From positions 1-24,777 of the IMG/VR virus record IMGVR_UViG_2778261216_000008: a stretch of 24,777 bases of DNA. One strand, given 5' to 3'. The notes under the pieces are model-generated. The model did no database searches, was not told the DNA's origin, and saw only the letters and a list, made by a program, of their open reading frames with translations. The translations under genes were made by a program, and so were the position numbers. Below are positions 24,251 to 24,777 of this stretch, piece after piece (within the stretch, counting starts at the first letter, position 1; each line of letters opens with the position of its first letter). This DNA is from a virus. Taxonomy: Duplodnaviria; Heunggongvirae; Uroviricota; Caudoviricetes.

Positions 24251-24538
24251 TTAAGTTTGAGGGTGAATACTTTCTTCATTCTTCCCCCAATTCTTAATGA
24301 GTTCATAAGCCCGCTTAAATTGAGTCGGGTCACTATAATCAAGCTCGATACCCAGTGACTTTAATTCATAGCGTAACTGCTCAATTTGATGTGGCTTTAG
24401 TCTTTTCTTGTTACGGTCAAGCGTAACATCTTCATATTCTTTTGAGCGGGTATCTTGTCTGATTAGATGTGATGCCAGTTTATAAAATTTGTACCTAGGT
24501 AGCATTAAATCTCCAGTAGTAAATTGTTTGGGTGGCAA
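24251..24538 (-). CDS. hypothetical protein (95 aa or shorter); overlaps the next ORF out of frame
   Basis: ORF only; 34-nt overlap with 24505..24777 in another frame, so start uncertain. Confidence 0.35.
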   Translation of the reverse strand: MPPKQFTTGDLMLPRYKFYKLASHLIRQDTRSKEYEDVTLDRNKKRLKPHQIEQLRYELKSLGIELDYSDPTQFKRAYELIKNWGKNEESIHPQT

Positions 24539-24777
24539 TTTCTTTTATTACCATCCCTGAAGATAATTTTTTTAGTTGCCTGAACTTCATGATGCAAAAA
24601 CCAGATGACATATTTCACATAATAATCACGAGTGCCATAACGAATCATTGGATTACCGTAAGCGTCATCTCTTGTCTTAACCTCTCCACCATCAATCCAT
24701 TCAAGCATTCCTGTTTCGTAATTAATCATGAAGTAAGTTGCAAAGAACCGTTTAATATCATCTCGCCATTGCTTCAT
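24505..24777 (-). CDS. hypothetical protein at the window edge, weak HNH-endonuclease-like C-terminal motif
   Basis: ATG is the last three bases of the window, so the true start may lie outside; ...HHEVQATKKIIFRDGNKRNCHPNNLLLEI loosely recalls an HNH motif. Confidence 0.35.
   Translation of the reverse strand: MKQWRDDIKRFFATYFMINYETGMLEWIDGGEVKTRDDAYGNPMIRYGTRDYYVKYVIWFLHHEVQATKKIIFRDGNKRNCHPNNLLLEI

What the first reader, a model, noticed from the sequence alone, without database searches (positions are those of the whole stretch)
24251..24777. Overlapping out-of-frame ORFs at the right edge, possibly a disrupted gene
ORFs 24505..24777 and 24251..24538 overlap by 34 nt in different frames. 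The first ends just after a weak HNH-like motif. Together they may be one gene split by a frameshift, or two genuinely overlapping small genes.
Basis: inference. Interest (0 to 1): 0.25.

Follow-up and report, generated by a model that had tools for sequence, protein, structure and literature searches.

The report
Two adjacent small genes, not a frameshift
The two "overlapping" reading frames are two ordinary neighbouring small genes on the minus strand, a catalytically crippled HNH-like gene and an unknown 84-residue gene, whose stop and start codons share one base (TAATG); nothing is broken.

Summary
The two ORFs exist as described, both on the minus strand. The 34-nt overlap is an artefact of starting the downstream ORF at the first upstream TTG. 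The conserved start is the ATG at 24505..24503. It shares one base with the TAA stop of the HNH-like ORF (TAATG) and has a GGAG Shine-Dalgarno 5 nt upstream.

Evidence for two separate genes:
- RefSeq annotates exactly these two CDSs in E. coli 26561.
- Among 5,426 complete E. coli genomes the two genes assort independently: both together in 11, ORF B behind an unrelated 96-aa gene, or the HNH-like gene followed by a 66-aa or a 128-aa gene. The junction is TTTAATG in every locus read.
- ORF A is 90 aa in 10 of 10 copies and shows purifying selection in its own frame.
- Relatives down to 27-40% identity also end a few residues after the NL motif, so its short C-terminus is native.
- No fused homologue exists, and artificial fusions do not improve the HNH_3 match.

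ORF A has Phe at the catalytic His position and lacks the metal-binding helix Asn, so it is probably not a nuclease. ORF B's function is unknown.

Verdict: ordinary, already annotated, low interest.

The parts
24505..24777 (-). ORF A: 90-aa free-standing HNH_3-like protein (stop TAA at 24507..24505 included). The catalytic His position is Phe73, and the protein ends before the metal-binding helix Asn.
   Evidence: ORF list. Pfam HNH_3 E 4.4e-5, profile 1-38 of 46. PHROG HNH families. Annotated 'HNH endonuclease' in RefSeq. 90 aa in 10 of 10 copies. 11 synonymous against 6 non-synonymous changes, P = 5e-5 to 5e-4. Alignment to a canonical HNH_3+AP2 protein.
24251..24505 (-). ORF B: 84-aa predicted three-helix protein of unknown function, starting at ATG 24505..24503 (stop 24253..24251).
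   Evidence: Identical protein annotated as WP_061362186.1 in E. coli 26561 and 2013C-4830. The same start is used behind an unrelated upstream gene. Intact in 14 of 14 copies. 33% identical (E 2e-4) to the N-terminal 76 residues of the 128-aa gene that occupies the same slot in strain 98206. AlphaFold2 model with three helices, pLDDT 70.
24503..24507 (-). TAATG junction: the stop of ORF A and the start of ORF B share one base.
   Evidence: Sequence. TTTAATG is conserved in all 17 sequences compared, whatever the partner gene.
24511..24514 (-). Shine-Dalgarno GGAG for ORF B, inside the end of ORF A, 5 nt before the ATG.
   Evidence: Sequence. The equivalent position reads GGAGG or GGGGG in other loci.
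24506..24538 (-). Spurious TTG-initiated 11-codon extension of ORF B. It is the source of the apparent 34-nt overlap and is not part of gene B.
   Evidence: It is absent from genomes where ORF B follows the 96-aa gene: homology begins at alignment column 262-263, about 12 nt before the ATG. There is no Shine-Dalgarno before the TTG. Substitutions in this stretch do not discriminate between the frames (2 synonymous and 3 non-synonymous in either).
24567..24573 (-). A7 run inside ORF A, in frame here. Naturally frameshifted alleles in other strains break at this point.
   Evidence: P0004 reads ...QATKR|LSSGMV..., shifting into the third frame and not into the frame of ORF B. Sequence.
24284..24288 (-). 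G5 run near the 3' end of ORF B. One extra base in other strains gives a 76-aa instead of an 84-aa product.
   Evidence: Alignment and translations.

Best explanation
These are two separate, co-oriented small genes in a tightly packed minus-strand operon of a phage-derived E. coli island.

Gene A (24777..24505) encodes a 90-residue free-standing HNH_3-like protein. Gene B (24505..24251) encodes an 84-residue helical protein of unknown function. The TAA stop of A and the ATG start of B share one base, and a GGAG Shine-Dalgarno for B lies in the last codons of A. Ribosomes finishing A most likely re-initiate or are recruited directly at B (translational coupling; inferred, not shown).

The A/B boundary is also a recombination boundary. 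A and B are exchangeable cassettes that occur with other partners in other strains.

Gene A has Phe at the position of the His-Me finger general-base histidine and stops before the metal-binding Asn of the core helix. It is therefore most likely not a nuclease. It is either a DNA-binding derivative of a homing-endonuclease-type gene or a remnant of one. Its close relatives share both traits, and it is under purifying selection, which favours a retained non-catalytic role (inferred).

The confidence of 0.9 applies to the two-gene, 1-nt-overlap anatomy. The functional inferences (coupling, non-catalytic role of A) are less certain, roughly 0.6-0.7.
For: Shown:
- ORFs and junction sequence.
- RefSeq annotates two CDSs sharing one base in strains 26561, LR-21-1 and CE0026f, and ORF B behind another gene in 2013C-4830 and TUM1881.
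- blastn against 5,426 complete E. coli genomes finds 90 with a match. Eleven cover both genes. Others match only window 24200-24515/6 (ORF B) or only 24500/3-24777 (ORF A), so the breakpoints fall at the junction.
- Partner genes differ: an unrelated 96-aa gene upstream of B, and a 66-aa or 128-aa gene downstream of A. TTTAATG and a Shine-Dalgarno are kept in every case.
- The window's A is 100% identical to A-only genomes and its B is 99.7% identical to a B-only genome.
- A is 90 aa in 10 of 10 copies and B is 84 or 76 aa in 14 of 14.
- Synonymous excess in the gene's own frame: A has 11 synonymous against 6 non-synonymous changes, P = 4.6e-5 (kappa 1) or 4.8e-4 (kappa 3), with no excess in the other frames. 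B has 8 against 9, P = 0.013 to 0.057.
- Relatives of A end at the same point: P0020 (95 aa, 40% identity), P0027 (100 aa), and two-domain proteins of 283-295 aa that stop 3-11 residues after the NL motif. Those that match Pfam HNH_3 do so only to about profile position 35-41 of 46.
- In the syntenic but divergent element L018, the HNH-like gene stands alone and is followed by 155 nt of non-coding DNA. tblastn finds no trace of ORF B there.
- ORF B aligns from its residue 5 to residue 2 of the 128-aa alternative partner (33% identity, E 2e-4), so both begin at the same place.
- Artificial A-B fusions score 21-23 bits or lose the HNH_3 match, and never extend past profile position 38.
- No promoter-like or terminator-like site on the coding strand separates A and B.
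- Alignment with a canonical HNH_3+AP2 protein (WIDHIDGDPLNNAISNLREVTKEQN) puts F73 under the His and ends ORF A before the helix Asn. The roles of these residues are taken from PMC5714182.
Against: - Translational coupling and co-transcription are inferred from anatomy only.
- Selection on ORF B is weakly supported (P = 0.013 to 0.057). PGAP leaves ORF B unannotated in 8 of the 13 fetched loci that carry it, although it is intact there.
- ORF B has no family, fold or defence-system match.
- Frameshifted, truncated and deletion alleles of A exist in other strains. The gene is therefore dispensable, and the purifying selection seen among close relatives may be weak or recent.
Confidence: 0.9

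Rival explanations
1. One ancestral HNH endonuclease gene split by a frameshift (mutation or sequencing error) at 24505-24538, with ORF B as its displaced C-terminal part.
For: Canonical HNH_3 proteins continue beyond the point where ORF A stops. The Pfam match covers only profile positions 1-38 of 46, and the phrog_959 match covers 30-94 of 138. The two ORFs overlap out of frame.
Against: - A and B occur independently with other partners, and the breakpoints lie at the junction.
- Relatives at 27-40% identity end at the same place, and those that match HNH_3 show the same truncated profile coverage.
- The divergent syntenic locus L018 has A alone.
- No fused homologue appears among hits from 5.8 billion clusters or 1.84 billion representatives.
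- ORF B has no similarity to HNH families.
- Artificial fusions do not extend the match.
- There is no homopolymer at the junction, and the junction is identical in many complete genomes.
Confidence: 0.02
2. Two genes with a genuine 34-nt out-of-frame overlap, ORF B being translated from the TTG at 24538.
For: The TTG-initiated frame is open. The TTG is conserved wherever ORF A is present, although it lies inside the conserved AAT TGC codons of ORF A.
Against: - Genomes with ORF B behind the 96-aa gene lack the TTG and the first 7-8 codons of the extension, yet keep the ATG and the Shine-Dalgarno.
- PGAP starts ORF B at the ATG.
- The 33%-identical homologue starts at the equivalent Met.
- There is no Shine-Dalgarno before the TTG.
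- The substitution pattern in the 34 nt is uninformative.
Confidence: 0.03
3. Only ORF A is a gene. ORF B is a non-coding open frame kept by chance in recently diverged sequences.
For: ORF B has no family, PHROG, NCBIfam, PADLOC or fold match. Its synonymous excess is marginal. PGAP leaves it unannotated in many genomes. Its 3' end varies through a G-run indel.
Against: - It is open in 14 of 14 copies despite 17 substitutions and a multi-base replacement in codons 2-3.
- It has a conserved ATG with a Shine-Dalgarno at proper spacing in three different upstream contexts.
- It is 33% identical (E 2e-4), in register, to the N-terminal half of an annotated 128-aa protein in the same slot.
- The AlphaFold2 single-sequence model gives three helices at pLDDT about 70.
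Confidence: 0.08
4. ORF A is still an active homing endonuclease whose cleavage creates the recombination boundaries seen on both of its sides.
For: It has presence/absence and partner polymorphism, with breakpoints exactly at its ends. Nuclease genes are known to sit at boundaries of genetic exchange in phages (PMC10055350). Tyr can replace the catalytic His in PacI (PMC5714182).
Against: Phe, which is not nucleophilic, sits at the His position. The residue before it is Ile rather than Asp. The protein ends before the metal-binding helix Asn. Most close relatives also carry F, Y or V there. Breakpoints at gene boundaries are the norm for phage mosaicism and do not need a nuclease.
Confidence: 0.05

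Closest known systems
Translationally coupled gene pairs with a 1-nt or 4-nt stop/start overlap (TAATG, ATGA) in phage and bacterial operons
   Same: TAA and ATG share one base. The Shine-Dalgarno sits inside the end of the upstream gene. There is no intergenic promoter or terminator. Neighbouring genes of the same operon are equally tight: a 2-nt gap upstream of A and an ATGA overlap in L018.
   Different: Nothing differs structurally. Coupling itself was not measured.
HNH_3 / I-HmuI-type His-Me finger homing endonucleases (group 2 of PMC5714182), including HNH+AP2 ('IPA-HNH') homing endonuclease genes of phages (PMC10055350)
   Same: It shares the N-terminal 'Y-x-ETG-x-L-x-W' beta region, the (Y/H)-x-V-x-W-F-L helix, the DGN-x-x-N loop and the NL motif. 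It is a free-standing small gene in a phage-derived element and sits at mosaic boundaries.
   Different: Phe replaces the catalytic His. Ile replaces the preceding acidic residue. The protein stops before the metal-binding Asn of the helix. It has no AP2, NUMOD or other DNA-binding extension. Its Pfam score is just under the gathering threshold.
His-less HNH_3-like domains with an F/Y-R-D-G-N motif, single or in tandem (P0024, P0025, P0028, P0029, P0031, P0033)
   Same: They have the same substitution at the His position and the same C-terminal end, 3-11 residues after NL. All of these hit HNH_3.
   Different: They are 30-38% identical, come from unidentified sources, and usually carry two to five domain copies per protein. 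To my knowledge no function has been described for them (not searched systematically).
Putative E. coli phage satellites with a tape measure protein and a baseplate component, a subset using a serine recombinase (Barth, Dunham & Seed 2023, PMC10055350)
   Same: The host island is about 11 kb and carries a tape measure protein, a Dit-like baseplate protein and a large serine recombinase. It lacks most tail genes and occurs at more than one chromosomal site.
   Different: No capsid genes or RepA_N protein were seen in the parts examined. Identity with that set was not tested.

Membership tests
Frameshift-split (disrupted) gene | Intact homologues exist in which both parts form one reading frame | tested here: not met
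   None among 10 + 9 clusters or 18 representatives. The longer proteins found are deletion fusions to other partner genes (P0002, P0009) or shifts into the third frame (P0004, P0006, P0007).
Frameshift-split (disrupted) gene | The downstream ORF is homologous to the C-terminal part of the family | tested here: not met
   ORF B has no HNH, Pfam or PHROG hit. Artificial fusions do not extend the HNH_3 match beyond profile position 38. tblastn finds no ORF B in the divergent locus L018.
Frameshift-split (disrupted) gene | Indel-prone sequence at the junction, or a junction that varies between strains | tested here: not met
   The longest run at 24500-24540 is 3 nt. TTTAATG is invariant in 17 sequences.
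Translationally coupled adjacent genes | Stop codon of the upstream gene overlaps or abuts the start codon of the downstream gene | tested here: met
   TAATG at 24507..24503.
Translationally coupled adjacent genes | Shine-Dalgarno for the downstream gene lies within the upstream coding sequence, at 4-9 nt spacing | tested here: met
   GGAG at 24514..24511, with a 5-nt spacer. It reads GGAGG or GGGGG in other loci.
Translationally coupled adjacent genes | Translation of the downstream gene depends on translation of the upstream gene | not testable with these tools
   Needs reporter fusions with premature stops in ORF A.
HNH / His-Me finger endonuclease (Pfam HNH_3, group 2 of PMC5714182) | Profile match at or above the curated threshold | tested here: inconclusive
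   ORF A scores 23.5 bits against a gathering score of 24.8 (E 4.4e-5). Its 40%-identical relative P0020 scores 33.4 bits and the other relatives 27.6-113 bits, except P0030, which gives no hit.
HNH / His-Me finger endonuclease (Pfam HNH_3, group 2 of PMC5714182) | Catalytic histidine (general base) at the end of the first beta strand | tested here: not met
   F73 aligns with the His of WIDHIDG in a canonical HNH_3+AP2 protein and with the His of IIHRNGN in P0020. The definition is from PMC5714182.
HNH / His-Me finger endonuclease (Pfam HNH_3, group 2 of PMC5714182) | Asparagine in the loop between the strands | tested here: met
   D75-G76-N77 and N80 are nearly invariant in the alignment.
HNH / His-Me finger endonuclease (Pfam HNH_3, group 2 of PMC5714182) | Metal-binding Asn or His in the core alpha helix | tested here: not met
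   ORF A ends at I90, 5 residues after N85 of the NL motif. The canonical protein has the Asn 9 residues after it (NLREVTKEQN).
HNH / His-Me finger endonuclease (Pfam HNH_3, group 2 of PMC5714182) | Beta-beta-alpha-metal fold | tested here: inconclusive
Free-standing homing endonuclease gene | Presence/absence polymorphism between otherwise homologous loci | tested here: met
   ORF A is present in some islands and replaced by a 96-aa gene in others, with flanks 95-99% identical.
Free-standing homing endonuclease gene | Site-specific cleavage of the allele that lacks the gene | not testable with these tools
   The sequence argues against activity. A biochemical assay is needed.

The most novel reading that the evidence does not exclude
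The His-less, helix-truncated 'F/Y-R-D-G-N' HNH_3-like domain may be a conserved non-catalytic DNA-binding module domesticated from homing endonucleases. In this island it would act together with an exchangeable, translationally coupled partner gene (ORF B, or the 66-aa or 128-aa gene), for example as a specificity or regulatory pair of a satellite-like element carrying a tape measure protein and a Dit-like protein. The evidence does not exclude this: there is purifying selection on ORF A, a conserved TAATG coupling to three different partners, and a wider family with the same substitutions. Nothing positively supports a joint function.
Probability: 0.1. Interest if true: 0.4.

Novelty: already known. 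Interest (0 to 1): 0.07.

Why it matters
It matters little beyond correct annotation. The locus should be recorded as two intact genes (an HNH_3-like protein of 90 aa and a hypothetical protein of 84 aa) with a 1-nt stop/start overlap, not as a pseudogene or an assembly error.

There are two minor points of wider use. First, choosing the most upstream alternative start codon inflates apparent gene overlaps. Second, the product named 'HNH endonuclease' here lacks the general-base histidine and the metal-binding residue, so the name probably overstates its activity.

Tried and rejected
- No DNA match in the phage or plasmid collections. The locus is chromosomal in E. coli only.
- Sequence searches of ORF A, and of its family profile, against solved structures gave only chance antibody and xylanase hits.
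- NCBIfam gave only a meaningless 16-bit QhpR hit for ORF B, and PADLOC gave nothing for either ORF or for seven neighbouring or alternative partner genes. PHROGs gave no hit for the small neighbouring genes.
- The Rfam E-value scan found nothing credible and the tandem-repeat scan found nothing.
- Read-through of the TAA stop (...EI-x-CYLGTNFINWHHI) was considered as an ancestral continuation. It does not extend the HNH_3 match (protein 4).
- Programmed frameshifting was considered. The junction has no slippery heptamer. The only slippery-looking run (A7, 24567-24573) lies 60 nt upstream, and natural shifts there enter the third frame, not the frame of ORF B.
- Substitution counts inside the 34-nt stretch cannot discriminate between the frames (2 synonymous and 3 non-synonymous in either).
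- The first literature search, for I-HmuI residue numbers, found nothing.

Full report
**Observation.** The mechanical ORF list shows two ORFs. One is 24505..24777 (90 aa, ATG) and the other is 24251..24538 (95 aa, TTG). Both are on the minus strand, in different frames, and they share 34 nt. The upstream ORF gives a weak match to Pfam HNH_3: E 4.4e-5, 23.5 bits against a gathering score of 24.8, profile positions 1-38 of 46. It also matches PHROG HNH families.

Reading the sequence shows more. The downstream frame contains an ATG at 24505..24503, and its first base is the last base of the TAA stop of the upstream ORF (minus strand ...GGAGATTTAATGCTA...). A GGAG lies 5 nt before that ATG. The TTG at 24538 is only the first alternative start codon in an 11-codon open stretch and has no Shine-Dalgarno.

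**Related sequences.** The region has no match in the phage or plasmid collections. It matches chromosomes of 420 of 5,426 complete E. coli genomes. In strain 26561 RefSeq annotates exactly two CDSs sharing one base. One is 'HNH endonuclease' (90 aa). The other is a hypothetical protein of 84 aa identical to the window's ORF B read from the ATG. Strains LR-21-1 and CE0026f show the same two CDSs.

A blastn search with window 24200-24777 finds 90 genomes in three classes:
- Eleven genomes carry both genes.
- Others match only 24200-24515/6. They have ORF B but not ORF A.
- Others match only 24500/3-24777. They have ORF A but not ORF B.

The partner genes differ between classes:
- Where ORF A is absent, ORF B follows an unrelated 96-aa gene. 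The 1-nt overlap and the MLPRYKF... start are the same.
- Where ORF B is absent, ORF A is followed by a 66-aa gene or a 128-aa gene, again through TAATG.

The window's ORF A is 100% identical to A-only genomes, and its ORF B is 99.7% identical to a B-only genome. The window's combination therefore looks like a recombinant joined at the gene boundary.

**Alignment of 17 copies.** TTTAATG is invariant. The Shine-Dalgarno reads GGAG, GGAGG or GGGGG. ORF A is 90 aa in 10 of 10 copies. ORF B is intact in 14 of 14 copies. It is 84 or 76 aa, depending on a G5/G6 run at 24284-24288. Genomes in which ORF B follows the 96-aa gene share homology only from about 12 nt upstream of the ATG. They lack the TTG and most of the supposed overlap.

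**Selection.**
- ORF A has 11 synonymous against 6 non-synonymous variable sites in its own frame. P is 4.6e-5 without a transition bias and 4.8e-4 with kappa = 3. The other two frames give 2:15 and 3:14.
- ORF B has 8 against 9 (P = 0.013 to 0.057). This is suggestive only.
- Within the 34 nt the counts cannot discriminate between the frames.

**Is ORF A truncated?**
- Word-indexed searches found only E. coli and Shigella relatives. Some are decayed alleles. P0004 is frameshifted at the A7 run (24567-24573), P0006 and P0007 further upstream, all three into the third frame. Others are deletions that fuse ORF A to the 66-aa or 128-aa partner. None is fused to ORF B. The ORF B search likewise found no protein with an HNH N-terminus.
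- The exhaustive phmmer search found P0020 (95 aa, 40% identity), P0027 (100 aa), P0030 (168 aa) and two-domain proteins of 283-295 aa.
- In the alignment these relatives end 3-11 residues after the NL motif, as ORF A does. Those that match Pfam HNH_3 do so only to about profile position 35-41 of 46.
- P0020 lies in a syntenic but divergent copy of the same island (L018). The neighbouring proteins there are 29-86% identical to those of the window's island. P0020 is a free-standing gene followed by 155 nt of non-coding DNA, and tblastn finds no ORF B there.
- Artificial A-B fusions, and a read-through of the stop codon, do not raise or extend the HNH_3 match.

The short C-terminus is therefore a family trait, not the result of a frameshift.

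**What the products are.** ORF A was aligned with a canonical HNH_3+AP2 protein from L018 (WIDHIDGDPLNNAISNLREVTKEQN). ORF A reads KIIFRDGNKRNCHPNNLLLEI-stop. Three differences follow from the alignment:
- Phe73 occupies the position of the general-base histidine.
- Ile occupies the position of the acidic residue before it.
- The protein ends before the helix Asn that binds the metal.

The roles of these residues are as defined in PMC5714182. Most relatives carry F, Y or V at the His position, and only P0020 keeps His. ORF A is thus an HNH_3-like protein that fails two defining catalytic features. I infer that it is non-catalytic. It could be a DNA-binding derivative, given the purifying selection. 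It could also be a slowly decaying remnant, given the disrupted alleles in other strains.

ORF B is predicted to be three helices (pLDDT 70). It has no family, fold or defence-system match. It is 33% identical (E 2e-4), in register from the N-terminus, to the first 76 residues of the 128-aa alternative partner. That protein carries a weak helix-turn-helix match at its C-terminus. The function of ORF B remains unknown.

**Mechanism.** The operon is tightly packed. A 2-nt gap and a GGAGG precede ORF A, and L018 has an ATGA overlap. No promoter-like or terminator-like site on the coding strand lies between A and B. The most likely reading is co-transcription and translational coupling through TAATG. 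This is inferred and not shown.

**Context.** The genes lie in an island of about 11 kb. It carries:
- a small resolvase;
- a Dam methyltransferase;
- an HTH_36 protein;
- several small genes;
- a tape measure protein;
- a Dit-like baseplate protein;
- a large serine recombinase.

The island sits between ymdF and wrbA in strain 26561 and next to yciI/kch in strain A0 34/86. It resembles the putative E. coli satellites described in PMC10055350, but identity with that set was not tested. Breakpoints at the ends of a nuclease-like gene fit that paper's theme, and they are equally explained by ordinary gene-boundary mosaicism.

**Verdict.** These are two ordinary, already annotated genes with a 1-nt stop/start overlap. 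Interest is low.

Noticed in passing
window 23901-24070 (-), upstream of the 107-aa gene at 23577..23900: A non-coding leader of about 150 nt is almost identical between the window, L006 and the divergent island L018, although the flanking proteins are only 40-86% identical. In L007 it is replaced by unrelated sequence. It folds into a long imperfect hairpin (CUCUCAAUCGC...GCGAUUGAGGAG; MFE -48.4 kcal/mol, z = -3.6, 0 of 200 shuffles fold as well). It has no credible Rfam match. It could be a regulatory RNA, an operator or a packaging or origin site.
   Followed up: partly
window about 17308-24777 and beyond; L017 2166-13535: The finding lies in an island of about 11 kb with a large serine recombinase, a Dit-like baseplate protein, a tape measure protein, small unknown genes, an HTH_36 protein, Dam and a small resolvase. 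Most tail genes are missing, and no capsid genes were seen in the parts examined. A 1.3-kb segment of it (window 23500-24777) matches at least 420 of 5,426 complete E. coli genomes, and the island lies at more than one chromosomal site. It resembles the putative satellites with a tape measure protein and a baseplate component, a subset of which use a serine recombinase, in PMC10055350.
   Followed up: partly
window 1-17239: The left 17 kb is a prophage region (integrase, replicative helicase, DUF968 protein and others). It is 100% identical to prophages in E. coli OkiPb01677 and 89-3156. It ends about 70 nt from the island's serine recombinase gene. In strain 26561 that position is occupied by wrbA, which from memory is a known Stx-phage integration site. 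The two mobile elements therefore appear to abut at one hot spot.
   Followed up: no
window 24567-24573 (A7 run, - strand) and 24284-24288 (G5 run, - strand): Two homopolymer runs behave as natural indel sites in the population. The A7 run is where one frameshifted HNH allele class (P0004, 94 aa) breaks. The G-run gives ORF B products of 84 or 76 aa. Both are in the 'long' state in the window.
   Followed up: yes
L018 3789-4004 compared with L006 4806-5006: The 66-aa gene that follows the HNH-like gene in strains A0 34/86 and E110019 lies upstream of it (70% identity) in the divergent island L018. There it overlaps the HNH-like gene's start by ATGA. Small genes shuffle around the HNH-like gene while keeping stop/start overlaps.
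   Followed up: partly
proteins P0024, P0025, P0028, P0029, P0031, P0033 (not in the window): These form a wider family of HNH_3-like domains. They have F, Y or V instead of the catalytic His (F/Y-R-D-G-N), end right after the NL motif, and are often present as 2-5 tandem copies per protein. They are probably non-catalytic DNA-binding repeats. I know of no description of them, and the literature was not searched systematically.
   Followed up: partly
L001 8040-11015 (E. coli 26561): About 3 kb of the island between the 183-aa gene and ymdF carries no annotated gene in strain 26561. Other strains have HTH_36, Dam and small-resolvase genes in that part. This suggests decay or unannotated pseudogenes in that strain.
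   Followed up: no
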